Shown here: positions 2,395 to 46,493 of the stretch, piece after piece | Layout of the letters: the number at the start of each line of letters is the position of its first letter | How positions within the stretch are numbered: the stretch's first letter is position 1 | Assembly: GCA_964016885.1 (NCBI GenBank) | Contig: OZ024741.1 | Location: 135,842,001 to 135,906,000 of the forward strand | DNA: 64,000 nt | Source of the DNA: Eledone cirrhosa | Taxonomy: Eukaryota | Direction of reading: 5' to 3' | Translations under genes and position numbers: made by a program | The notes under the pieces: model-generated | Told to the model about the DNA's origin: nothing | The model's input: only the letters and a program-made list of their open reading frames with translations | Databases searched by the model: none

Positions 2395-3013
2395 TATGCG
2401 GGTATATACATACATATATGTATGTATGTATTCTCAGGCATACACAAAAAGCACAAAAAGCACAAAAACGTTATACACACACTCGTGGATATACACATAC
2501 ACACACTCATACAAAACATATACACACACAAGCTCTCATCAAATACATACGCATGTACGCAGGTTCATCCACAAAAAAGTACATAAATATTTCCCAGACA
2601 CACACCGTCATCACGCGCGCGCACTTCCACCAACGATAAACAAACCACACACATACATACACAGAAGCAATAATGTACAATCATGATGCACATGATGCAC
2701 ACACACACATAACAACACCTGTGACAAAACAAACTCTCTACCCAGGCCAGTATATCTCAGTACAGGACTACTCGTCTACTATCAGCAGCCATCTTAAAAT
2801 GTCTTTTACGCAAACTCCGATGTTCTAGCCCTCCCCCTCTCTCTCCGAAATCTCAATTGCTTAAAGAAAGACTTATGTGCGAAACGTCATACCCTATTTT
2901 ACTTCCTCCTAAGTGTGATGGTAATAAAAATGTGTTCTGCATCTCTGCATTTGACTTGTTGTTTCTTGAACTACACACATACACACACACACACATATAA
3001 ATATATATGTATG

Positions 3014-3120
<107 letters not shown>

Positions 3121-3127
3121 GTATATG

Positions 3128-3174
<47 letters not shown>

Positions 3175-3199
3175 GTATATGTATATATATATACACATA

Positions 3200-3230
<31 letters not shown>

Positions 3231-3232
3231 GT

Positions 3233-3272
<40 letters not shown>

Positions 3273-3283
3273 ATATACATATA

Positions 3284-3316
<33 letters not shown>

Positions 3317-3425
3317 GTATATGTTTATATATATACATATATATATATACATATATATATACATATATATATGTATGTATGTATTCTCAGGCATACACAA
3401 AAAGCACAAAAACGTTATACACACA

Positions 3426-3534
<109 letters not shown>

Positions 3535-3634
3535 CCAAATATTAATATGGTTCATTGATTACTCATAGTTTTACAATAGATTAAAAGCACTCTACAGTGA
3601 AGTTATCTGGAGTTATTAATAGTATTCAATATTG

Positions 3635-3715
<81 letters not shown>

Positions 3716-3790
3716 TATATGTCCACAAATAGATGCACACAAATATGTATATATATAAGTATTAATATATATATATATATATATATATAT

Positions 3791-4240
3791 AAACGGGAAA
3801 AATGAAACGAAATTTCATTTCTCACTCTTAGTACGGCTGTTACTTAAATATAAGTATGTATACGTACATAAATATATGTATACGGACGTATATATATATA
3901 TATATAGATACATGCACACATATATATATATATATATGTACGTATGGATTCACCGAACATTTAATATAATGCTCGGTGTGTTTGTAAACAAACATCCCGA
4001 ATTAAGCCGTACAGTGTCTAGCAACCATCGTTGCTCATTTGTTCAACACTGACAAAGGAACGCTGTACTAGTTTCAAGCTTATTAGCTATCGTCAGCAAC
4101 GTATACCTTCCTGCCAGATGATTGAACGTCTGAAAGTATGTACTTTCCTTATGCATATTAACGGCTGAGCAGCCTAATTTGCATATAGAGCGAGTTAATC
4201 GGCCGGGTGCACCGAAAACGGTAAACGGAAAAAATACATA

Positions 4241-4246
<6 letters not shown>
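3791..4246 (-). mobile_element. Retrozyme-like monomer (octamer, hammerhead, tail), a diverged homolog of the 467-bp unit
   Basis: The reverse complement aligns block by block with the 467-bp unit: ATGCAAATTAG, HHR, TGTTTACA and the TTAAG..CAG..TAC..AGTGAG..GAAATT tail. Flanked by (TA)n. Confidence 0.8.
4060..4102 (-). ncRNA. Type I hammerhead ribozyme with intact core
   Basis: acguug CUGACGA u-AGCU-aaua-AGCU-u GAAA CUAG UA^cagcgu. Stem I has 6 bp, stem II 4 bp, stem III is a minimal palindrome. Confidence 0.85.
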
Positions 4247-4285
<39 letters not shown>

Positions 4286-9887: not shown

Positions 9888-9928
<41 letters not shown>

Positions 9929-10021
9929 TAAGTTAAAGTGAGTTACAAACGAAACGAAATTTAATTTCGTTTCGTTATTTGTTTTTATCGTCTCCGTTGA
10001 ACCGGTACTTACTCACACTCT

Positions 10022-10029
10022 ATGCAAAT
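10022..10029 (+). promoter_or_regulatory. Octamer motif ATGCAAAT (also at 10489, 10956, 11423, 13575; minus strand 4177-4184 and 29835-29842)
   Basis: Perfect octamer within ATGCAAATTAG, retained in three otherwise strongly diverged element types, 70-100 nt upstream of the HHR core. Function is inferred. Confidence 0.6.
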
Positions 10030-10114
10030 TAGTCTGCCCACTACTAATTTTCATAGAAAAAGCATATAACGATATGTGCTTTTACGATTCTCTAGAGAGG
10101 CCGGAAGATAGGTA

Positions 10115-10159
10115 AATATTGCTGATGAGTTGTAACAACAACGAAACTAGTTCAATATT
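10115..10159 (+). ncRNA. Type I hammerhead ribozyme, unit 1
   Basis: aauauug CUGAUGA GUUGU-aaca-ACAAC GAAA CUAG UU^caauauu. Stem I has 7 bp, stem II 5 bp, stem III is palindromic. Predicted cut after 10152. Confidence 0.92.
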
Positions 10160-10581
10160 CCTTGTCTGGCTTTCTGGAGAATAGAGGAGAGGTGTTTCCT
10201 CAAAAACCAGTATGACTCTAAAAACCGGTTTGTCTGTGTGTTTACATACAGAATAGCTGGCCACTCACAGTAAAGTGACCAGTGAAAAAACTTGGTACAC
10301 CTACATATGTATACGTGTGTGTATTCATATACATACTAGTATTTCAGTATACATATATGGATGTACATCTTTAACTTAATTGTTTAAGCGTCAGTCATAC
10401 AAAAGTGAGTTACAAACGAAACGAAATTTAATTTCGTTTCGTTATTTGTTTTTATCGTCTCCGTTGAACCGGTACTTACTCACACTCTATGCAAATTAGT
10501 CTGCCCACTACTAATTTTCATAGAAAAAGCATATAACGATATGTGCTTTTACGATTCTCTAGAGAGGCCGGAAGATAGGTA

Positions 10582-10626
10582 AATATTGCTGATGAGTTGT
10601 AACAACAACGAAACTAGTTCAATATT
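10582..10626 (+). ncRNA. Type I hammerhead ribozyme, unit 2
   Basis: Identical to 10115-10159. Confidence 0.92.
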
Positions 10627-11048
10627 CCTTGTCTGGCTTTCTGGAGAATAGAGGAGAGGTGTTTCCTCAAAAACCAGTATGACTCTAAAAACCGGTTTGT
10701 CTGTGTGTTTACATACAGAATAGCTGGCCACTCACAGTAAAGTGACCAGTGAAAAAACTTGGTACACCTACATATGTATACGTGTGTGTATTCATATACA
10801 TACTAGTATTTCAGTATACATATATGGATGTACATCTTTAACTTAATTGTTTAAGCGTCATTTATACAAAAGTGAGTTACAAACGAAACGAAATTTAATT
10901 TCGTTTCGTTATTTGTTTTTATCGTCTCCGTTGAACCGGTACTTACTCACACTCTATGCAAATTAGTCTGCCCACTACTAATTTTCATAGAAAAAGCATA
11001 TAACGATATGTGCTTTTACGATTCTCTAGAGAGGCCGGAAGATAGGTA

Positions 11049-11093
11049 AATATTGCTGATGAGTTGTAACAACAACGAAACTAGTTCAATATT
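11049..11093 (+). ncRNA. Type I hammerhead ribozyme, unit 3
   Basis: Identical to 10115-10159. Confidence 0.92.
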
Positions 11094-11515
11094 CCTTGTC
11101 TGGCTTTCTGGAGAATAGAGGAGAGGTGTTTCCTCAAAAACCAGTATGACTCTAAAAACCGGTTTGTCTGTGTGTTTACATACAGAATAGCTGGCCACTC
11201 ACAGTAAAGTGACCAGTGAAAAAACTTGGTACACCTACATATGTATACGTGTGTGTATTCATATACATACTAGTATTTCAGTATACATATATGGATGTAC
11301 ATCTTTAACTTAATTGTTTAAGCGTCAGTCATACAAAAGTGAGTTACAAACGAAACGAAATTTAATTTCGTTTCGTTATTTGTTTTTATCGTCTCCGTTG
11401 AACCGGTACTTACTCACACTCTATGCAAATTAGTCTGCCCACTACTAATTTTCATAGAAAAAGCATATAACGATATGTGCTTTTACGATTCTCTAGAGAG
11501 GCCGGAAGATAGGTA

Positions 11516-11560
11516 AATATTGCTGATGAGTTGTAACAACAACGAAACTAGTTCAATATT
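11516..11560 (+). ncRNA. Type I hammerhead ribozyme, unit 4
   Basis: Identical to 10115-10159. Confidence 0.92.
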
Positions 11561-11849
11561 CCTTGTCTGGCTTTCTGGAGAATAGAGGAGAGGTGTTTCC
11601 TCAAAAACCAGTATGACTCTAAAAACCGGTTTGTCTGTGTGTTTACATACAGAATAGCTGGCCACTCACAGTAAAGTGACCAGTGAAAAAACTTGGTACA
11701 CCTACATATGTATACGTGTGTGTATTCATATACATACTAGTATTTCAGTATACATATATGGATGTACATCTTTAACTTAATTGTTTAAGCGTCAGTCATA
11801 CAAAAGTGAGTTACAAACGAAACGAAATTTAATTTCGTTTCGTTATTTG

Positions 11850-11931
<82 letters not shown>

Positions 11932-12996: not shown

Positions 12997-14040
<1,044 letters not shown>

Positions 14041-29000: not shown

Positions 29001-29615
29001 GGCCGTAACTCTTTGCTGCAAAGCATAATGAATGAATATTACATAATTTATCTACTAAATTTCGTAAACAAAAATAATTTCGTAAAAATAAATAATATAA
29101 ATTTGACTTCTTTTCAAAGTTGCACTTCCGCTATATCGTCGCCACCACCATCACATCAACTACCATATATATAGAAAGAGAGAGTGTGTGATGTCAACAC
29201 TTCCGGTGGCGATCGCTTAAATAAACATACTAATTTTCTGTCACTAATTTTCTCCTAATGCAGTTTACAATATCGTCTTTTTTTAATGTATCGTGGATCA
29301 TGGATTACGTTACTGAAACATAGTCTTCGTTCAATTTCTGTGTATATTGTCAATTACGATTGTATTTGATGTATCATATCTACATGTATATACACCTGCG
29401 TATAATATCAATATACACACTACACCCGAAGGGTAGTTTTCTGCTAGTTATTATAATATTGGTTTCTTATATAGGCACAAGGCCAGCAATTTTTCGGGAG
29501 GGGAAAGTCGATTAAATCGGCCCAGTAGGTGACTGATACTTTATTTTATCGACCCCGTAAGGATGAAAGGCAAAGTTAACCTCGGCGGGATTTGAACTCA
29601 GATAATAAAGGGCCA

Positions 29616-30113
29616 TAATATTAATATTCTGTTTGTTTGCAAGTAAACAGCCTCATTAACACCAGGTGCATTTTCTAGATGACTATGTCATCGTTTTGTT
29701 CCAGAGGTGGCTGAGAAGAAACAGTCGCCAATTATCTCGGAAATGTTGAGACTGTGCATCCTCATCGCAGCTACGCCCTGCAACTGCTGAGATTACATAG
29801 TGTTTTCAAATGTATACATGGGCTGATTAGCCTAATTTGCATACCGAGCCAATTTACAGCCGACTTTGCCGTAAATTAAAAATACAATTTGTTTTCGCTC
29901 TAATATGCTAGATGACTAAATATATTCGTGAGTGAATAATTATAATATTATTAATATTCAGTTTATTTTGAAGCAAACAGCCTCATTAACACCATGTGTG
30001 TTTTCTAGATGACCATGTCATCCTTTTGTTCCAGTGGTAGTTGAGAGATAACAGTCGACAATTGTTTCGGAGTTGTTCCTCTCTATCAAGACTGTTTATC
30101 CTCGTCGCTGCTA
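29616..30113 (-). mobile_element. Decayed retrozyme-like partial dimer with a ~330-bp period
   Basis: cagcctcattaacacc recurs at 29648 and 29978. The minus strand has ATGCAAATTAGGC, TGTTTAC and the HHR remnant (c)GACGA GGA..UCC GAAA CAAUUG UC^gacug (about 30050-30108). Confidence 0.6.
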
Positions 30114-30514
30114 TTTTAATATTATTGATGATTTACAAGAAAGATGGATTGAAAAGTGATCCTCTTAACCACTCAGCCACTCTCTTCACATCTATCATTG
30201 AAAAGTTTCATAGAAACAGCCATTTTGTTTCATGTAGAAGGAGGAGATATCTACGTTTACATGTTGAGAGTGAATGTCAAAGGTTGTTAGAAAGTCAAAC
30301 AGAAACAAATATACAAATATATCAAACTTGTGGGTTATCCTCCAGACAACCAATTGTAAACAAAGTAACATAATATTGGTAAATATGTGTAATGACGCAG
30401 CCCGTACATTGGTTGTTCAAACATAGCGCATATATATATATATATATATAATATATATCTGTGTGTGTGTGTGTGTGTGTGTGTGTGGTGTGTATGTGTA
30501 TATGTGTATGTATG

Positions 30515-35000: not shown

Positions 35001-35034
<34 letters not shown>

Positions 35035-35051
35035 ATGCTTTGGGAGGGTCG

Positions 35052-36050
35052 TGTTAGCAATAAGAAACACACGCACCAGCTGCTTCACTCCAATTTATTA
35101 TAAACTAAATTTATAAATTTAAGAATTTATAAATTTCCGATTAGTTGCTTGGTTCCATAAGCGGACGGTTGTTCATATATTGTCAAAGTTCTTTCGTCAC
35201 ACATTCTGTGACCTCTTCAGTGACTGGGGATTCTTTTCTTTGTTTTGTGCCTCTCCTTTGTTCTGTCCTACGCCATCTTGTTTTTATGTGTGTTGTGTGC
35301 TTAGTTTGCGCATGTGTTATATCCGGGTGTCTGTATGTGTTTTTATTTGTTTATTTATTTGTTTATTTACATGTTACTGGTTGGTTGTTTGTTCTATGTC
35401 TGTGTGTGTTTTCATTTTGTCCTTAATTGTAAGTTGTGATGTTGATATTCCATTCATGTTTTCTATTTAATTTTGGTTGGAGTTAATTTATGTTTATTGC
35501 CTCTGTGATTTGTCTAAATATTGCGTCTTTTCTGTGTGTAGATTCTATTTTTATTTCTATGTTCTCTAATTTGCCCTTATGTTCTATTTTAGCATTTTGG
35601 TGGAGTATTGATGATTCTTTTTTATCTTGAAGTTTTCGCCAGTGTTCATTTAACCGTTCTCCTATGCTACGAGCTGTCTCACCTATGTACACTATATTCT
35701 TATCTTTACATTGTCCTTCAGTACATCTTAAGCTATATACTACATTTCTAGTTTTACAGTTAATATGGGGGCTTAGTTTACATTTTTATCTATATGCATT
35801 TCTTATCTATAAAGGGAGGTCTTTGAAAAGTGTATGTATTGCTAATAAGGGTTTTTATGGAGGTACCTGGTCTTTCTACTATCTTAATATTAAGTTTATG
35901 TTTATCTAGGGCCCTTCTAAATGTGTAAGCTAATTCACCTCCAGGGGTTGTATTGATGAAAATTACACTCTGGTATTTATTGCTATCATACCATGAGTTT
36001 ATTCTACTAACCTTATTACTTGTTCTTTTTATTTTATTCCAAAATTTGCT
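35052..36050 (-). mobile_element. Penelope-like element 3' fragment: GIY-YIG endonuclease plus pLTR
   Basis: Frameshifted ORF reading ...IKIVERPGTSIK...CKTRNVVYSLRC...VYIGETARSIGERLNEH...RQITEAININ, with an HHR downstream. Confidence 0.85.
35182..35224 (-). ncRNA. Hammerhead ribozyme of the Penelope pLTR
   Basis: guca CUGAAGA g-GUCACA-gaaug-UGUGAC GAAA GAAC UU^ugac. Confidence 0.8.
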
Positions 36051-39000
36051 CAATTACTAAACCTTATGGACTCTTTTCTAATCGCTCTTTTCAGAGCAAA
36101 CCACCACTTGTTGTTGACAATGGCCCCCGTCAACGCCCGCTTAACTAGTTCGCTAATCCGGTCTCTGTAGGTCTTGCGCGCTGGTAAGGACGCGTTTAGC
36201 TTCCAGTAGCCGGGTCCTCGTCTATGAAGCCTATCTAAGTGAAGCACACAAATCACGAATTTGTGGTCCGTGTAGCTGACTATCTTGAATTGTGGACAGC
36301 CTATGCTAGACCTATCTATTTCCCTACAAAATACTCTATCTAGATATGATCTGGATGACCCTATGCGGTTTGTTCAAGTCCACATTGGCACATTCGGGAA
36401 ATTCAATCGGTACATGTCAGACAGTTCAAAACGCCTGAGCAGGTTGGTGAGGCTCTTGCACCCTACTCCCTATCTGCTAATCCCACACAATCCTAACGTG
36501 CATCTAAGATCCCGTTCCAGTCGCCCACTAACACTAAAGAGCTGGACGTTCCAAGAAAGGTCTCCAGACGCCGGAAGAAATCGGCCGCCCTGCTCCTGTC
36601 AGGGCATAGACGGCCACTAACCTGAAAGCTTGCCCGTCTCCGCTGGTCACGTCCAACACCACCAACTTACCTTCTGGGTCCAGGAAGATGGCCCGTATGG
36701 CGAGATCCAAACCTCTCCGAAAAAGCACAGCAACTCATCCATCCGATCCAGGACGGCTGGGAGATGCGTACACATCGTAGCCGCCGAAGATCGTTGCGAA
36801 GGCCCGTGCTTCGGAGATTCTGGTCTCGCTGATGGCCACAACATCTATGTTTAGTGACCTGAGGTCGTTGAGCAGGTGGCCCTGCTTCCATGACGACCCC
36901 AAGCCACGCGCATTTATGTTGCCTATACTGATGCGGTCATGTTGAAATGGAGTGGAAAAGATGGGAAAGACCATTTACCTTACTTCTCGTAGAGGAAGGA
37001 TGGTTTGTCCATCCTTTTCACTGCTTCTGGCCTCCTCCAGAAGGATGTCCTTATAAATCCTCCTGGAGAGTGCTTGTCGGAAGTCTCCGATGTCTTTGGG
37101 GAATTTTTGTTTTAGTGTCGTGTACATTTCTGTGTGATGCGAGTGATTTGTATGTGTGTAGGCGGTGTGAACTTTTGGGTTGTTGTGTAGTCTTTTTCTG
37201 TGACGCTGGTGTTGTGTTGGATCTAGTGTAATAATTGGTTGTTGTTCCAATTTAATGCTGTGTACTGTGTATCGTTTTGGTTGTTTTGTTTCGTTTGCGT
37301 TTGTTGTGGGTTTGTTTCTATTTCGCTTTTTGGTGACTTTTGTGGTGTTGGGGTTAATGATGGTGATGGTGTTGGTGTTTGTGGTGATGGGGTTGGTGAT
37401 GCTGGTGTGGATGGTGGCATAGCTGTCCTAACCTTTTTTTTTGATAGTTTATTTGTTTCCCTCTGTATTTCGTTTTTGGAGGGGGAAGGAAGAGAATTTT
37501 TTTCTTTTTTGGTTTCCTTTTCTTTTTTTCTTTTTTCCTGATACCGTTTCCCACTCCTCGTCGTCACAATCTGTCTCCAGTTGCGATAGGTCGGGGAGTG
37601 GAAAATCCTTCACAGGCGTTGGTTTTGGTTGTGGCGTGGTGGATGGTGTAGGCGCTGGTGCTAGTTCTGGCGCGTTGGGTGGTGGTGGTGTTGGTCTTGC
37701 TACTGTTGCTGAGGCTGTTGCTGTTACAGTTGCTTCTGTTGTTGCTGCTAGTTTTTGTCATTTCTGCTGCTGGTGGTGTTGATGGTTCAGTCACTGGGGT
37801 GTGTAAGAGAGGTGGCTTCAACCTTTTAGCCTGACGGCAGAAAGCCCTTAGGTGGGTTTCTTCACCACAAACGACACACCTAGGCCTTCTGCCCTCGACG
37901 ATTACGGTGAGGTAGCTGCCGTCAGTGAGGTCTATTACCTCTGGGATCGCCTCAATGCTTTTTTGGTCCGCTTGGATCAGGAGCTCCATCTCAGATCCGG
38001 ACCAGTTCTCTTGCTTTTCTTTCGCTATTTCGATTATCTTGGTGTTGGCCTCGATGCAGGCGAGGACGGCAGCCATTAGCCAGGGAATTTCGATGGCCGG
38101 TGGAACGTGGGTCACCTGATCTTCACGGGTCTCTGGCCACAATAGCTTGGGAGGAGTGTGAAGTCGTCACTTCTTAATGGGACCATGGAGTGTTCTCTGG
38201 CCTGCTGTGGTGTTCCAAAGAACACGTCTACGGTTCCATATTTCTGCCCACGTCTGATGTGGGTTTTTTTTGCCCACACATGTCCCAAAGCTTTTTGGAT
38301 TTGGGACTCGGTTGCCCGTTCCACTCGGCGCGATTTTATGTTAATCGTCCGATAAGACACGGTGCATAGGCGCCGATGCTCCATTTTATTAGGTGGGGAG
38401 TGAGGCTGACCCTGTACTCATCTTTCTTTACCATTCTCTTAGTTTCATCTAATTCCTCCTGAGTTACCTGGATTGCTTCGCACTTTTTTGCTACTCTGGC
38501 AAAAGACAGGGTGGTTTTCTTATTCTCATTGTTGTTGTTGCTGTTGTTGTTATCGTTATTTTTGTTATTGTTATTTGAAGTTTCAGTTGTGGTGGTGTTC
38601 GGTGTGGAAGATTCCATTCTGGGTGAAACCATTTCGATGTCACGAGATAATTTATTTTTTTCTTTTGTTTCTATTGTCGCTGTGGTGGTGGTGGGGGTGG
38701 CGGCTTCAAGACTTGCAGTCATTGGTAATGGTGGGAAATGAATGTCTGCATGAGACAAATTTAAATTATTGCTACTGTTTATATTTTTTTTGTTGGCAAA
38801 CGTAGTAATATTTACAATGGTGGTGTCGGTGTGAGGTGTTAGTTTGTTAGAAAGGTGTGACTGTGAGACGTCCATGATTTTTTCAAAGAAATTTTTGTTT
38901 GATAATTATAAAAGTTTAAATTTGGGGCTCAAGGCCCCAATCTTTTTGAGTGTCCTTTTCAGAAAACAATGTATGTGCACTTATATACAGTTAACAATAA

Positions 39001-39088
39001 AGATTTTCCATAAATGGCAATTTTAAACAACTGAAAACAATAAACCTTTGCGGAGCTCACGATAATACGATTTTCTACGTAGGTCGCC
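36051..39088 (-). mobile_element. Tx1/L1-clade LINE A: 5' end, ORF1 and APE endonuclease; 3'-truncated
   Basis: Frameshifted ORF1 (38875-36975) with the CCHC knuckle CVVCGEETHLRAFC. ORF2 reads ISIGNINARGL..DVVAISETR..VAVYA..DHKFV..GPGYWKLN. Confidence 0.9.
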
Positions 39089-42000
39089 AATAATAATAAT
39101 AATAATGATTTCATTTATTGGCCACAAGGGCCGACATATAGGGGACAATACAAAAGATTGGGACAGTGGGGTTTTACAGAAAAATCGAGTAAACAATATG
39201 AATAACAATAACAAAGTAACAATAACAAAGTAATAATAAAGTAACAATAAAGTTACAACAAGAAAAAATTCCACAATAGGGAGGATGACCACCCAGGGTT
39301 CGTTCAGGTACCCCACCAATCCTGAACGACTCGACGCTTCGAGAGCACTCTGGAAGGGCACCCCCTCTCCTCCTCAAATTTACCTACCTACAGCCGTATG
39401 ACCAGAGTAGGGCCACTCACACGGGCCATTCTCGCCACATTCACCCACCTTTCAGCAAATGTACTGGGGGGCAGCACTTCTCTCTCCACCCTCATATTCC
39501 TTTCCAAGTGAAACTTGAAAAAGTTGATGAGGGATTAGCCGAAGAGAACAGTGTCTGTCTTCAGTCCTTTCAACCTCGTCCACCATACAACCTCTTTCGC
39601 TACTGCCACCAGACAGAGGAAAATTGCCTACCCTTCCTGGCCAAAAGAAGGCGGCGGGTCAATCTTCACTATGGACTCGGCCGATAGCCGGATCCGTTCT
39701 ACACGCGACAACAGCTGTTCAACATAACTCCACAAGTCAGTAATGCACGGACACTGGACAAGTGCGTGCAGAACGGTTTCGTCGCTCTGCGCACATGTCG
39801 GGGAGGTCCGTTTGACAGCACTTCCGTGCCTGTAGAGTTTATCTCGAACCGGCAGTGCCCCTCGGTAGCACTGCCAAGCGAGGGATTTTTGGAAATTATC
39901 CATCGACCCCGGCTCGAAAGTCCTCCGGTACAGACTGGTTAGTTCGACTTCGTTGACTCCCAGAGCCTCTCCGAGTGCGTCGTCGCACTTGCCCACCACT
40001 AATCCTCTATAGAACTCGAGAGTGGAAGTTCCACTGACCGCATTGCCCTTCTGGTAGAGGGCAGTGAGTTCCTGGCAACATTCCAGATGCTAGTCACTCA
40101 GTCTCGATCTCTTCTTGACCAGGACTGCAGCTCAGTCAAAGAAACGAGCTGCAGAAAGGCCCGTTTGACAAACGGCGACCACACTTGTTCACCGTTTAGG
40201 CAGAATATCTGGAGTTGTCGCAGCCTCAGCGCATGCCTGCGCATCATTAGCCACGGCATACCCATCCCTCCACGTAGAAGGAGGTTGCAGCAGATGGACC
40301 GCCTCACCAGCGGAACCTGACCCCTCCACAAGAATTTGAAGGGGAGTCGTTCCAAGATGGCGATGCGCGAACGTGGGCAAGGGACGACGGTCAGACGGTA
40401 GTAGATGACGGACGCGATGTACGCGTTCGCCACCTCCGCCCGACCTTTCAGTGATAGCTTCATCCCAGCCCATTTCTGGGTGAGACTGGCTACCCTGCCC
40501 GTCACCTCGTCCCAATTCTTATCCACCTGGAGGTCTGGCCCGAACCAAACCCTTAGCAACTTTACCGGTCCGTCCGTCCAGCGCCTAACGAGCCTGTTGG
40601 ACGGCATGGACTTGCCTCTCCAGGTGCCGAGTTGCAAGCCCACCGACTTTTCCGGGTTAAGTTTTGCTCCCGTCAACCTTTCATATTCCTCCAATAAGTT
40701 GCCGACCACCTCGATTTCTGAGTTGTCCGACACCATCACGGTGATGTCGTCCGCATAAGCCGACACAGCCTTTCCGCGTCCCGGTTCGAGCGGGATGCCC
40801 TGCAACAGCCCCAGCTTCCGCAGTAAAGGCTCGAGAGTCAATACCTACAAAAGGGAGGAGAGAGGGCACCCTTGACGGACCGATCGGGAGACCTGAAACG
40901 GTTCCGAGAGGTGGCCATTAATTTTGACCATCGAGCAGGTGCCGTTGTGCATTGCAGCGATCCAGCTTCTGAAGACGGGGCCGAAGCCAGCCGCCTTGAG
41001 GACAGCCTCCAGGTATCGAATGCTTTCGATTGATCTAAATTGATTAGAGCCCCACCGAAGCCAGGTTTACACCCTACCCTCTCTATGATGTATCGCATTA
41101 CGTGGAGGTTGTCGTGTGTGGACCTGGTTGGGATTGCGCAAGTTTGCGCCTCTCCAACCAAATCCCCGACGACAAGCGCCAACCTCTTCGCTAACACCCT
41201 GGCCAAAATCTTAAATTCTGTGTTGAGCAGAGTTATGGGCCTGAAATTGTCTCATGTGTCCCTCTTGTTCTCGTCTTTCCTTATAAGCGTCACTACGCCC
41301 CGGCTCACAGAACTGGGAATACTCCCGTTTTGCTGCCACTTGCAGTAGAGGGCTTCGAGGAGATTGGAGAACAAGTCTGGCATATTTACGTAAAACTCGT
41401 AGGGCAGACCATCCAAACCGGGTGACTTGCGCCTCATGCAGCCGACAAGGGCATCCTGAATCTAGGCTGAAGTAATTGGCCTTTCGCAGCGCCCAGCGTC
41501 AGCCGTCGTGAGTTTCGGCAAGCCATCGAGTTAGGGACTGAAGTCCGCCACCATCTCTGACCCGTCACTTCCCCCGGACAACCGAGCACAATGTTGGCGA
41601 AAGGCCTCACACATCCGCTTAGAATCGCTCAGCTCGTGTCCGTCTCGGTCCGTCAAAGACCGAATCGTGGTTTTGTTACCACGCTGCGCCTCTGCCACGC
41701 GGGCCCATCGAACAGCTTTGGCTCCCTCGTTTCTCAGAGCACGCGCTTTAGCTCTGACAATGCAACCTTCGTGTTTCGCATTGAAGAAATGGTCTAATGC
41801 CATTCTCGCCGCTAGCACATCAGTTGCAATGCCACTACCAATAGCCTCGTCTAACTTATCTACCAACTCCTCCTCCTTTCTATTTTTCTCTAACGCTACT
41901 TCTTTGCTAAACTCTATCGACATTACTCTAGTCTCTCTTTTGAGAGCCCCCCACCATCTATTGTTGACGACTCCCCCTGTCAACTTTTTCTTAACTAAAT

Positions 42001-44937
42001 TGTTGACCTGGTCCCTGTAAGCCTTACGTGCCAGAAATGACATGTTTCGCTTCAGTAACCAGGTCCTAACTTACGCGTCTTATCTAGGTTGACCATACAG
42101 ATCACAAACTTGTGATCTGAATAGGCGACCGTTTCAAAACGTGGACAGCTTACACTATTTCTGTCTATTTTCCTAATGAATATCCTGTCTATATACGATC
42201 TAGATGACCCTATGCGGTTAGCCGAGGTCCACACTGGCGCATTAGGGAAATCTAGTCAGTACCTGTCAGACAGTTGGAACTGGCTGATAAGGTTCTTGAG
42301 GCTTTTGCACCCCCAGCTCCTATTGGATACTCCCACACAGTCCCAGCGTGCCTCTAAGATGCCGTTCCAGTCCCCCGCTAACAGTAAAGGGCGAGCCGTA
42401 CCCAGAAAGGCTTTCAGGCGTCTAAAGAAGTCCGGCCGTCCTGCTCCAGTAGGAGCATAGACGGCCACCAGTTTAAAGGCACCACCTTCGTTATTGTTCA
42501 CGTCCAGGACTACCAACTTCCCTTCCCGTCCGGGTCCCGGAAGATCGATCCAGGCCTTTCCTAAACAGCACTGCCACCCCGCCTCCCATTCCCGGCCGGC
42601 TAACAGATGCAAAGATCTGATAGTCGTCGAAAATGGGGGCTAGTGCGCGCGTGTCGGAAATCCTGGTCTCGCTGACGGCAATTACATCCATTTCTAGAGA
42701 CCTGAGGTCATTGAGCAGGTGACCCTGCTTCCAGGACGATGCCAGGCCTCGAACATTTAAACATCCTACTCTTAATACGGCCATGTTGGCAGGTTAAAAA
42801 GAGAGAGAGAGGAAAGGTTTACTTACCTTCCGGGCTCTTGTCAAGGTCGAGTTGTTCGACCTCCATAGTTGGTGGGGTTTCTTTTGGCAACCCCTTTAAA
42901 AGTCTTGAAGTTGGTTTTACGTTCGGGGTTCCCACGTCCCGAGGAAAGCTGTCTCGTATTTCTTTGTATAATTCGATCGACATTCGCACCAGAACCAAAT
43001 CTTCCGGCACGCGAAATGTGCTCGATTTAAAAATGTCCCCCTCTTTTTGTATATTTTCACTTCGTGCTACGAGGGCCATCAATTCCTTGTTGGCCCTCCT
43101 GACGAGCACGAAGTTTTGTATGTTTTGTTAGCGTGATTTTATTTGTTTGCGTGCCTGTGGTGGTAATGGTTTTGGTGGTGTTGTTTCGGTTGTATCTGTG
43201 TTTGTTGTGAGTGCGGTGTCTGTGGTTTCAGATGTTTGTGTGTATATTTGTTCTTGCGTCTGTTTAGGTTGTTTGCGTTTGAGGGATTCTGGTGATGGTG
43301 GTGCTGATGTTGGTTTTTTTTCAGAGATGTTTGCGCGGGTGGTGTCGGCGTTTTTTTTGTGGGTGATTTTGTGCTTTGTTGAGTTCTTTTTTTCTTTTTG
43401 CGTTTCTTTTTTTGTATTTTGGGGGATTTGGGTTTTCCCTCATCTTCACTACTGCTAGATGAGGGGTCTGTTGTCTGTAAGTGTGTCTGTAAGTATGTTT
43501 ATGGTTTTACTGGTGTGTGTATTTTGGGGGGGGAGGGGGAATTTGACAGCTTTCCTCGTTTCCCCCCTGGGTGGTCAATGTTGGTGGTGGTCTTTCTATT
43601 GGTGTTGTTGTTGGTGGTTTTGCCGGTGCTGGTGTTGGTTGTGGTCCTCGCTCCGGTGTCGGCAGCAGTGGAGCCTTTCGACCCCTTGCCTCTTTCAGCA
43701 GTTGAGGGCAGAAGGCTCGCAAATTGGTTTTTTCCCCACAAACTGCGGCCTTTTGCCTTCGGTCATAATGTGAATGACCGTCCCATTTTGAAGGCGGATG
43801 TGGTCCGGGATTGTCTTCACATTCTCGGGCCTGATCTGGAGAAGGATCTACAGGTCAACCCCGCACCAGTCCTCTCTGGCCGTTCTGGTCACTTCTATAG
43901 GGACGGTATCCGTCCCCTCCACAATCAAACATCCCAGAAGCCACCACATGTGAAGTCCTGGTGGGATTCTGGGAATGCGGAGACGGGCCGTACTTTTTCC
44001 CATGTGGGAGGGGTACACTATGACCTTGCTGGTTTTGCAAGGAGTCATAGCGTGTTTCATAACGAGGGCTTCTGACTTGAACAACACCGAAATGGTGCCG
44101 CACTGTCTGCCCCTCTCTATGTATTCGGTGTCTTCTTGTGGGATTAAAGCAGCCCTTTTGGTTTGTGCTGAGATGCATCTATAATGCACCGTTCTGCGCT
44201 CCACTGCCTCAATAGCTTCTACCGGGACAGTTAAGTTGTCCCAGGTTTGCTCTTTCTTGATGAGCTTCCATGCTGGGCCAACTTTTCATCTTTGTTTGAG
44301 AGGTCTATGTTGAAGGATGGCCTCTTTTTTGCTGCTGCCGCAGCGAAAGTGTTCTTCTTCTTTTCGTTGGAGGTGTTGTTGTCGTTGTTCTTGTTGGTGT
44401 TGTTGTTATCACTGTCGCTGTTATCATTGTTGTCTTTGTTTCCACCATTGTTCTCGGTGTAGTTGGTATTGCTGCTGTTGGTGTTGTCGCTATTCGTTTT
44501 CATGTTAGTGGTGTTGATATTGTTGTTGCATTTGTTTTGTTATTTTTGTTATCTGTATTTTCGTTGTCGCTGTTACTGTCATTTTTTTTCATAATTAGAG
44601 TTCCCATTGGTATCATTGGTGTCTTTGTTTACATTGTTTGTGGTGGTGTTTGTGTTATCAATTTGTGTTAATTTCGCTGTAGCGCTCCTCTCAACTTCTA
44701 CGTCGTTGTCGCACGACAGCCGACATATCGCTGGGGGGCGTAGCTCAGCCATGTTTTTTTTTCTCCGTAAATTTTTTAACATGTAAAAAAAGTTCAAATA
44801 TTATACTTTCCCCTTAACAGGGCAAAGTCTAAGGGCTTATATCCCTTACACAACAAGGAATATTTAACAACAAATAATTTTAACAGGCAAATAAAGCGAC
44901 TTACTGGAAGCGAGCCAAAAAGACGTCCAAACAGACC
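39089..44937 (-). mobile_element. Tx1/L1-clade LINE B, essentially full length (~5.8 kb) but degenerate
   Basis: ORF1 at about 44752-42819. ORF2 from 42784 has APE (CLNVRGL, VSETR, AGDWN, YIDRIF, SDHKFV), RT (KSPGLDGLPYEFY, LDQSKAFD, AYADDIT) and a C-terminal C..DETVLHALVQC. The 3' end is AATAAA plus (ATT)n. Confidence 0.93.
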
Positions 44938-45959: not shown

Positions 45960-46006
<47 letters not shown>

Positions 46007-46269
46007 CGGCGATGAATTAGTTTTGCGAGGTTTTTGATATGAAATCGTGTGACGAAACAAATATTGTTATACTTGGGGAGGGTCATATTTGTGTAATATT
46101 GCCAGAATTAATAACAGAACACACTCACTGTTTGGATGGTTTTCGCTTTTCGCTCTTGTGTCTTTTATATCGGTAATCTAATTTATTCGGTCCTCAATGT
46201 TGCCATTGACTGACCAACGGTAAAAAATAATACAGATACAATATAGACACAAACACATATATATAGTTT

Positions 46270-46311
46270 ATCAAAGTTCTTTCGTTGCACATCTGCAACA
46301 TCGTCAGTGGT
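46270..46311 (-). ncRNA. Hammerhead motif related to 35182-35224
   Basis: acca CUGACGA u-GUUGCA-gaug-UGCAAC GAAA GAAC UU^ugau. Stem II covaries with the 35.2-kb copy. Confidence 0.7.
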
Positions 46312-46493
46312 GCTATTGTTTCCTCCCGTCGCATTGTATTTTCTACGCCATCTTTATTTAGCGAAAACCAACCAAACAGTGAGTGTGTTCTGTTATTAAT
46401 TCTGGCAATATTACACAAATATAACCCTCCCCAAGTATAACAATATATATATATATATGAAAAGTGTAATTTTCTACACAAAACGAAGGTTAT

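What the first reader, a model, noticed from the sequence alone, without database searches (positions are those of the whole stretch)
3791..4246. Diverged sister retrozyme whose hammerhead covaries with the array copy
Seen: on the minus strand the block order matches the 467-bp unit while the sequence is much changed. Pairing is nevertheless kept. Stem I aauauug/caauauu becomes acguug/cagcgu, and stem II GUUGU/ACAAC becomes AGCU/AGCU. The distal stem I is cuggca..aagg/ccuu.ugucag, and CUGANGA, GAAA and CUAG-UH are unchanged. The monomer is terminally redundant (atttttccgttt-like at both ends). Inference: compensatory change points to selection on ribozyme structure, and the redundancy fits copying of a circular or multimeric template.
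Basis: partly seen in the sequence, partly recalled or inferred. Interest (0 to 1): 0.8.

Follow-up and report, generated by a model that had tools for sequence, protein, structure and literature searches.

The report
Retrozyme carrying host snRNA-gene promoter
This is one of thousands of genomic copies of a small non-coding repeat with a predicted self-cutting RNA (a retrozyme) that is likely spread by Penelope-type retrotransposons, and it carries the same upstream sequence box as the host's own U6, U6atac and MRP RNA genes, so it likely has its own promoter, although animal retrozymes have been described as having none.

Summary
Observation confirmed. Window 3791-4222 (minus) is a 432-bp unit, 61% identical and colinear with the 467-bp array unit, also outside the hammerhead. 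Seven of nine doubly changed stem pairs stay paired, but the core-closing pair of stem II is U·U in 169 of 175 copies. It is not a lone relic: 2,712 exact 3' ends join (AT)n and box-plus-hammerhead occurs 25,086 times against 0. Insertions copy the pattern of a TA-targeting Neptune-type Penelope element of this genome (inverted second end, ~57-nt tail), and one insertion is a direct Penelope-retrozyme chimera. New: the best-conserved block across four retrozyme families is the 12-mer at -77 to -79 of five host Pol III loci (U6, U6atac, MRP), absent from U1/U2; downstream spacing in this family fits U1/U2 genes. Best reading: a Penelope-mobilised non-LTR retrozyme with its own snRNA-type promoter, Pol II somewhat likelier than Pol III. 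No expression or cleavage data. Known class, new variant; interest 0.6.

The parts
3791..4222 (-). One full 432-bp retrozyme unit (family B), 36% GC, no long ORF
4223..4235 (-). 13-nt overlap: end of the preceding unit, the 5' breakpoint of the direct segment
   Evidence: family breakpoints
4235..4247 (+). 13-nt inverted copy of 3860-3848: the second (tail-less) end of the insertion, joined to (TA)n
   Evidence: the same inverted end, 120 nt or longer, in 45 of 90 insertions
4174..4185 (-). 12-mer TATGCAAATTAG, shared with the -77 to -79 element of host U6, U6atac and RNase MRP genes; longest invariant run across four retrozyme families
4164..4168 (-). TCAGC, 4 of 5 letters of the TCAGT box at -56 to -58 of host U1/U2 genes
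4136..4142 (-). TATA-like box 26 nt after the TCAG box; this copy differs from the family at 4140 (107 of 108 copies have the TATA-type letter)
4112..4112 (-). Predicted transcription start (pyrimidine then A, 56 nt from the TCAG box), 47 nt before the cut; inferred
4049..4117 (-). Type I hammerhead: extended stem I with bulge, core 4096-4090, stem II 4089-4076 with U·U closing pair, 2-bp palindromic stem III 4072-4067
4065..4066 (-). Predicted self-cleavage site after GUA
   Evidence: sequence and hammerhead numbering; not assayed
3980..3993 (-). Small hairpin block with look-alikes in families A, B2 and C
3848..3946 (-). TA-rich self-complementary segment ending at the internal end point X (3848)
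3791..3847 (-). 57-nt tail with a palindrome (3821-3804) and T-run (3802-3798; T6 in most copies), ending at the (AT)n junction
2995..3790 (.). (TA)n target tract on the tail side (the other side is 4248-4285)
9925..11856 (+). Family A array, 4.1 units of 467 bp, with the same short inverted end at its start; a second family A insertion with a long inversion lies at 13101-14010
29610..30130 (-). Decayed family C retrozyme (about 1.5 units) with the same 12-mer at 29844-29833
35030..36050 (-). 3' fragment of a Neptune-type Penelope element (family D): GIY-YIG domain 35486-35785, hammerhead near 35220, end at (TA)n; candidate helper

Best explanation
It is a dispersed copy of a high-copy, non-coding repeat with a type I hammerhead fold and Penelope-type insertion ends, likely a non-LTR retrozyme that is likely transcribed from its own snRNA-gene-type promoter (Pol II more likely than Pol III) and likely copied into TA tracts by a Neptune-type Penelope element. 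Shown: the family, its copy numbers, the compensated stems, the shared 12-mer, the two-ended insertion pattern, one Penelope-retrozyme chimera. Inferred cycle: in a tandem array the promoter of one unit starts an RNA about 47 nt before the cut; the polymerase reads through the T-run and the next unit's promoter; two hammerheads pair through the palindromic stem III and cut; the cut-to-cut monomer, which carries the next promoter inside it, is ligated to a circle or stays multimeric; the Penelope RT/endonuclease nicks a (TA)n tract and primes twice, at X and 57 nt further on, giving head-to-head, variably truncated, often longer-than-unit inserts. This copy (one unit plus 13 nt, one hammerhead, altered TATA-like box) would be a dead-end product. 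Odds by step: retrozyme 0.9, Penelope-type helper 0.85, own promoter 0.7, Pol II rather than Pol III 0.6 given a promoter.
For: Homology and compensation. Abundance: 25,086 box-plus-core matches, 0 in the reversed control; 2,712 tail ends on (AT)n, 0 control. Ends: 45 of 90 insertions have an inverted segment starting at X; Penelope family D does the same (18 of 39 ends stop at its X on TA, 21 run into a tail of about 50-58 nt); inverted 5' copies, a one-sided tail and microsatellite bias are described Penelope traits (PMC8557442). L004 joins a D-type inverted tail, a Penelope endonuclease fragment and a family B unit between two TA tracts. Continuous template: 61 of 90 direct and 39 of 45 inverted segments cross the cut; no pile-up of breakpoints at the cut (3 of 59, P 0.23). 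Promoter: 12-mer at -77, -78, -79, -78, -78 of U6 (3 loci), U6atac and MRP; a matrix from those five scores 18.7 in both units, 0 of 1000 shuffles each; it is the longest invariant run among families A, B, C, E while the arm that pairs with it varies; 0 of 12 unrelated hammerhead-like motifs have it. U1/U2 spacing model: family B typical copies 13.7 (0 and 3 of 500 shuffles), E 15.8 (2 of 500), left-out U1/U2 genes 13.5-24.9, Pol III genes 0.4-8.3. Insert ends lie beyond the T6 run and 68 of 293 family A reads of one site (overlapping loci counted) have T5-T7 mid-unit, which suits Pol II.
Against: No transcript, start site, circle or cleavage was seen. The U1/U2 spacing model is not significant for family A (53 of 500) or decayed family C (59 and 125 of 500) and was built after seeing the match; B and E are related, so not independent. 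The 12-mer itself is Pol III-specific here (0 of 9 U1 upstreams; no octamer in 4 U2 loci), and its distance to the TATA-like box is 42-44 nt against 47-49 in the genes, so the promoter fits neither class fully. The 12-mer and the TATA-like box both lie in predicted RNA hairpins. The five gene loci were picked as top-scoring full-length hits; 14 further U6 hits and 5 further U6atac hits lack the box at that place (most look like retrocopies, two full-length ones do not obviously). No sequence homology between D's end and B's end was found, and the chimera is 1 of 120 family B loci. U·U replaces the conserved G10.1-C11.1 pair (PMC4209133) and may slow cleavage; in Xenopus 8 of 9 predicted retrozymes did not cleave.
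Confidence: 0.6

Rival explanations
1. Same element, but transcribed by Pol III from a U6-type promoter (12-mer plus TATA), with the T5-T6 run near the unit end as a leaky terminator.
For: The 12-mer is found only at Pol III loci; no T4 run lies between the predicted start and the terminal T-run in the B unit or the array A unit; U6 and U6atac retrocopies sit at TA tracts and one U6atac copy is joined head-to-head to a family E fragment.
Against: Box-to-TATA distance is 4-5 nt short; T4 avoidance is not significant (P 0.28 and 0.07) and an A sub-lineage has T5-T7 mid-unit; the copied template runs on past the T-run in every tandem junction.
Confidence: 0.22
2. The 12-mer is kept for an RNA role (hairpin arm, RT or ligase recognition); the units have no promoter and are made by read-through from host genes, as the current model holds.
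For: The 12-mer is the 5' arm of a predicted hairpin in A and B; the unit folds far better than shuffles (z -8.7, inflated by the TA block); PMC7761336 states that metazoan retrozymes seem to lack promoters.
Against: The arm is invariant while its partner varies among families; an RNA role does not explain identity with a position-fixed host promoter box (0 of 1000 shuffles).
Confidence: 0.13
3. The units are detached pseudo-LTRs of an autonomous Penelope family not yet found here, and the promoter-like block is that element's own; compatible with the best reading on mechanism, different on origin.
For: In Xenopus 24 of 57 retrozyme families matched known elements, 21 of those 22 elements being Penelope-like, at their termini (10.64898/2026.07.22.740005); L004 places a B unit directly behind a Penelope 3' UTR.
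Against: None of 90 tail-anchored insertions runs into Penelope coding sequence; the only Penelope family inspected (D) has an unrelated terminal repeat without the 12-mer upstream of its hammerhead. Other Penelope families were not enumerated.
Confidence: 0.2
4. An ordinary satellite spread at DNA level (unequal exchange or DNA circles), with a hammerhead-like fold that is a relic.
For: Long near-identical family A arrays exist.
Against: Fixed 3' ends on (AT)n, inversions with a second fixed end, random 5' truncation and compensated stems are not DNA-level signatures.
Confidence: 0.03

Closest known systems
Metazoan non-LTR retrozymes (Cervera and de la Pena 2020, PMC7229834; passages and Discussion read, supplement not readable)
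   Same: Type I hammerhead in short, low-GC, non-coding tandem units, dispersed and arrayed; short palindromic stem III; Penelope elements proposed as helpers.
   Different: Unit is 432-467 bp (theirs about 170-400); a host snRNA-gene promoter box is present, while PMC7761336 (one passage) says such elements seem to lack promoters; helper evidence here comes from end structure and a chimera; expression not shown here.
Newt satellite 2 (Coats, Zhang and Epstein 1994; not held, seen only as cited in PMC2220036 and PMC6765202)
   Same: Hammerhead tandem repeat with an internal snRNA-type promoter used by Pol II; dimer-dependent ribozyme.
   Different: Here the box is the one at host Pol III loci and lies directly beside a U1/U2-like box; that the newt promoter has an octamer far upstream of a PSE is recalled, not checked. 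No sequence relationship was tested.
Schistosome SM-alpha hammerhead repeats (passage in PMC6765202)
   Same: Promoter of one unit transcribes the next, so single copies cannot propagate.
   Different: Described there as Pol III, SINE-like; that its promoter is of the internal tRNA type is recalled. Here the match is to upstream snRNA-gene boxes.
Neptune-type Penelope-like elements and their pseudo-LTRs (PMC8557442, PMC4209133: passages; bioRxiv 10.64898/2026.07.22.740005: parts 1-3 of 5)
   Same: Inverted 5' copy, tail on one end only, TA-microsatellite target, hammerhead; family D in this window shows all of them.
   Different: No RT or endonuclease in the unit; canonical extended hammerhead rather than a minimal one; no homology to family D's terminal repeat; tail about 57 nt against the 30-40 bp described.

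Membership tests
Non-LTR retrozyme | Type I hammerhead with conserved core in each unit | tested here: met
   Core boxes and three stems; array copy scores as HH9 below cut-off; U·U at 10.1-11.1 is a departure
Non-LTR retrozyme | Short low-GC non-coding units in tandem and dispersed | tested here: met
   432 bp, 36% GC; no ORF of 150 aa or more; tandems and monomers
Non-LTR retrozyme | No LTR/PBS/PPT frame around a central region | tested here: met
   The 90 insertions parsed consist of unit sequence in direct or inverted order; PBS/PPT were not searched for by name
Non-LTR retrozyme | Self-cleavage in vitro (monomer or dimer) | not testable with these tools
   Needs an assay
Non-LTR retrozyme | Expressed as unit-length linear and circular RNA | not testable with these tools
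   No RNA holder listed; indirect only: templates longer than one unit
Non-LTR retrozyme | Target-site duplication when present | tested here: inconclusive
   Both flanks are (TA)n, so a duplication cannot be read
Autonomous Penelope-like element | ORF with RT and GIY-YIG endonuclease | tested here: not met
   None in the unit or behind 90 tail ends; family D has them (PF01541, PF00078 weak)
Penelope-mobilised insert | Inverted 5' copy, one-sided tail, microsatellite target | tested here: met
   45 of 90 with inverted X end; 57-nt tail; 2,712 ends on (AT)n; same in family D
Penelope pseudo-LTR derivative | Sequence homology to the terminal repeat of an autonomous element | tested here: inconclusive
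   None to family D; other families not enumerated; one chimera
Pol III type 3 (U6-type) promoter | Upstream element shared with host U6, U6atac and MRP genes | tested here: met
Pol III type 3 (U6-type) promoter | Gene-like element-to-TATA spacing (47-49 nt here) | tested here: not met
   42-44 nt in A, B, C, E
Pol II snRNA (U1/U2-type) promoter | TCAGT box, TATA-like box 25-28 nt later, start at A 56-58 nt from the box | tested here: inconclusive
   Met in B and E, not significant in A and C
Any snRNA-type promoter | SNAPc binding and mapped start site | not testable with these tools
   Needs ChIP, 5' RACE or a reporter

The most novel reading that the evidence does not exclude
A clan of at least four invertebrate retrozyme families has captured a hybrid snRNA-gene promoter (the host's Pol III-gene upstream box fused to U1/U2 spacing), keeps it through cut-to-cut circular permutation, and is copied by a TA-targeting Penelope RT that can switch between its own RNA and the retrozyme's in one insertion; with newt satellite 2 this would make snRNA-promoter capture a repeated route by which animal ribozyme circles become self-expressing.
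Probability: 0.4. Interest if true: 0.75.

Novelty: new variant of a known kind. Interest (0 to 1): 0.6.

Why it matters
Two steps of the animal retrozyme cycle are open: how the units are transcribed (a 2020 review assumes read-through) and what copies them (Penelope elements are proposed from co-occurrence and pseudo-LTR homology). This family offers a named promoter box, a predicted start base, a named helper with matching ends and a chimera, so both become directly testable. As by-products it gives the host's type 3 Pol III promoter box (useful for guide-RNA expression in this animal) and natural hammerhead core variants (U·U at 10.1-11.1; a U3-A8-type core in family C) at high copy.

Tried and rejected
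Rfam at gathering score: nothing in the window; at E up to 1 nothing on 3960-4240. Twister reading of 29600-30130: no Rfam match, and 20 aligned copies show a hammerhead instead. Expression: no RNA holder listed; run X1 laid nothing and the other runs are contigs of unknown kind, so nothing is concluded; low-depth holders in three other organisms were not interpreted. Octamer as a distant U2 enhancer: none in four U2 loci. Breakpoints at the cut or predicted start: not enriched (3 of 59 each); enrichment near one full round (21 of 59, P 0.008) uses a window chosen afterwards and overlaps a hairpin, so it is a hint only. T4 avoidance: not significant. U1/U2 3' box in the units: none with up to 2 mismatches. 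Search for further families by core alone: 12 unrelated motifs, none with the 12-mer. Conservation within dispersed copies does not separate the 12-mer (5.3% off-majority) from other sequence (4.7%), as expected for neutral decay. Scripts with faults: empty unit, rerun; gene self-scores cut short, rerun; stopped at the last line. Earlier-findings look-ups returned nothing. Literature searches listed no paper on this promoter match; Repbase and Dfam could not be searched, and the supplements of PMC7229834 and of the 2026 preprint were not seen and may list these families.

Full report
1. What is there. The minus strand 4222-3791 is one 432-bp unit, 36% GC, here called family B. It aligns end to end with the 467-bp unit of the array at 9935-11856 (family A) at 61% identity, score 250 against at most 90 in 500 shuffles; the parts outside the hammerhead are significant on their own (0, 1 and 0 of 500). 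Before the unit lie 13 nt of the previous unit's end (4235-4223) and 13 nt that are the exact inverse of 3860-3848; both flanks are (TA)n.

2. The ribozyme. Both families fold as type I hammerheads that align without gaps over 73 columns. Of 24 pairs, 10 are identical, 7 change on both sides and still pair, 3 are kept through G-U, 4 are lost in one family, all to U·U. Seven of nine double changes pair (P 0.001-0.017). On nine subfamily rows 90.7% of cells pair against 32-48% with slid partners; the covariation score beats 500 shuffles but the count of doubly changed pairs does not (54 of 500), and the rows descend from two or three lineages. Subfamilies add small compensations (a U-A to A-U swap in stem II of A, a U·G to G·U flip in stem I of B). 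The pair closing stem II on the core is U·U in 169 of 175 B copies, against the G10.1-C11.1 pair called highly conserved in PMC4209133 (passages). Stem III has two pairs round a palindromic loop, the form that paper says cuts well only as a dimer. The cut falls after GUA, between 4066 and 4065. Rfam gives the A motif 37.7 bits (HH9, cut-off 52) and the B motif nothing. No cleavage was measured.

3. The family. The genome is 3.0 Gb; no call names the host (its look reminded me of a cephalopod; that is recall). A search with the B unit raised 901 candidates, 40 scored, 95-97% identical apart from the window itself. The pattern box plus hammerhead core matches 25,086 times, 0 in the reversed control. 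B's 3' end joined to (AT)n matches 2,712 times, 0 control. I fetched 90 of the 100 listed places, all on one contig and all chosen for an intact tail end, so young copies are favoured. In them the direct segment has median 424 nt; 61 cross the cut site, 37 exceed one unit, 6 exceed two; 45 carry a head-to-head segment of 120 nt or more that begins at one fixed point X, 57 nt before the tail end, and 39 of those also cross the cut. TA-rich sequence blurs some breakpoints. Among 59 breakpoints outside it, none pile up at the cut (3) or the predicted start (3); 21 lie near one full round (P 0.008, window chosen afterwards).

4. The helper. The window holds a Penelope 3' fragment (family D) with a cysteine-rich linker and GIY-YIG domain (PF01541, E 2e-5), a hammerhead and an end on (TA)n; it has thousands of relatives (29,559 candidates, 150 scored) and RT-endonuclease frames up to 777 aa (PF00078 weak). 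The label Neptune-type rests on the linker motif described in PMC8557442 (passages); no tree was built. D ends as B does: 18 of 39 ends stop at its own X on TA, 21 run into a tail of about 50-58 nt. Family A has the same plan with a tail of about 72 nt. Locus L004 is one insert between TA tracts made of an inverted D-type tail, a Penelope endonuclease fragment (58% to D) with its 3' UTR, and a B unit ending at X. It is 1 of 120 B loci; the other D-B neighbours that are close are separated by TA. D's end shows no homology to B's, so D marks the kind of helper, not necessarily the helper.

5. The promoter. Aligning B, a B subfamily, A and two further families (C, window 29610-30130 and 19 other loci; E, L277) leaves ATATGCAAAT as the longest invariant run, longer than any in the ribozyme. 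The same 12-mer, with at most one mismatch, lies at -77, -78 and -79 of three U6 loci, -78 of the top U6atac hit and -78 of the only MRP hit, each with TATA 47-49 nt further on. A matrix from these five scores 18.7 in both units; 0 of 1000 shuffles reach it. Not carrying it at that place: 14 other U6 hits and 5 other U6atac hits, mostly truncated or TA-joined retrocopies but two full-length; 9 of 9 distinct U1 upstreams; four U2 loci had no octamer; 12 of 12 unrelated hammerhead-like motifs. But the retrozyme's TATA-like box is only 42-44 nt from the 12-mer. U1 and U2 genes have TCAGT at -56 to -58 and a TATA-like box 25-28 nt later; B, C and E have TCAG 17 nt into the block, a TATA-like box 26-27 nt later and pyrimidine-A at the matching start. 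A model of that spacing scores left-out U1/U2 genes 13.5-24.9, Pol III genes 0.4-8.3, typical B copies 13.7 (0 and 3 of 500), E 15.8 (2 of 500), this copy 8.9 (10 of 500; its TATA-like box differs from 107 of 108 copies), but C 4.4-5.8 and A 7.6, not significant. Host U6 genes end in T7 or more; B has T6 at each junction and its inserts run past it, T4 avoidance is not significant, and some A copies have T5-T7 mid-unit. I read this as a real snRNA-type promoter (0.7), Pol II somewhat likelier (0.6). The counter-reading is an RNA hairpin arm.

6. How it most likely works. Shown: family, stems, ends, chimera, shared box. Inferred: an upstream unit's promoter starts at about 4112; read-through makes multimers; paired hammerheads cut; the monomer carries the next promoter and is circularised or stays multimeric; a Penelope RT/endonuclease primes at two points in a nicked (TA)n tract. 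A copy of one unit plus 13 nt has a promoter ahead of one hammerhead and cannot yield a cut-to-cut monomer, so this copy would be inactive as a source.

7. Comparison. It meets the sequence criteria of non-LTR retrozymes (PMC7229834; passages and Discussion; octopus and cephalopod occur 0 times in its main text; supplement unreadable); cleavage and circles are untested. A Penelope link is already proposed there and in the 2026 preprint (parts 1-3 of 5; vertebrate-centred). A 2020 review says metazoan retrozymes seem to lack promoters (PMC7761336, one passage), yet newt satellite 2 has a Pol II snRNA promoter and the schistosome repeat a Pol III one (as cited in PMC2220036 and PMC6765202; the original papers were not held). 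Insect work shows that such spacing is tightly kept (PMC1761439, passages). Passages of PMC4287351, PMC10886601, PMC6962438, PMC2837043 and PMC4758252 added nothing on this point. Nine searches listed no report of this match; repeat databases were not searchable.

8. Verdict. What lifts it is the host promoter box and the Penelope-type ends with a chimera. New variant of a known kind; interest 0.6; most novel reading 0.4 likely, 0.75 if true.

Noticed in passing
window 29610-30130 (-); L092-L110: Family C: older retrozyme family (75-80% between copies, 1,532 candidates) whose core reads UCGAUAA, a U3-A8-type variant, with a longer palindromic stem III and the same loop II letters as family A.
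   Followed up: partly
L277 1290-1500 (-) and 1501-1624 (+): Family E retrozyme fragment joined head-to-head to a U6atac copy next to a simple-repeat tract; may be a template switch between a host small RNA and a retrozyme.
   Followed up: partly
L197, L198, L274, L275: U6 and U6atac retrocopies begin directly at TA tracts, as if made by the TA-targeting RT.
   Followed up: no
L123, L124, L125, L273, L279; L111-L113, L207, L280-L290: The host's Pol III type 3 genes use an octamer-containing 12-mer at -78 plus TATA, while U1/U2 use TCAGT at -57 plus a TATA-like box at -30: the two classes share no obvious box. The name octamer is recalled.
   Followed up: partly
L253 222 (+) and 1422 on the minus strand; L028 94 (+): Another repeated sequence that begins with the same 12-mer type but is none of families A, B, C, E.
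   Followed up: no
window 46005-46440 (-): Non-coding D-type insert with a hammerhead, inverted X end and tail, between TA tracts.
   Followed up: partly
window about 36050-44100 (-): Decayed LINE-like element (RT-like frame 40098-40844 and endonuclease-like sequence near 36900) that abuts the family D fragment; no family search was run on it.
   Followed up: no
window 13101-13367 / 13365-14010: Family A inversion whose breakpoint falls exactly at the first base of the CUGA box; this insert sits in a TA tract inside another inverted-repeat element.
   Followed up: no
L310-L321: Twelve scattered hammerhead-like cores with short stem II and no shared flanks, 0 in the control; probably relics of old Penelope families.
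   Followed up: partly
G000 C1 256.53 Mb, 56.39 Mb, 5.74 Mb: Family A arrays of 20-30 near-identical units, some head-to-head, point to very recent amplification.
   Followed up: no
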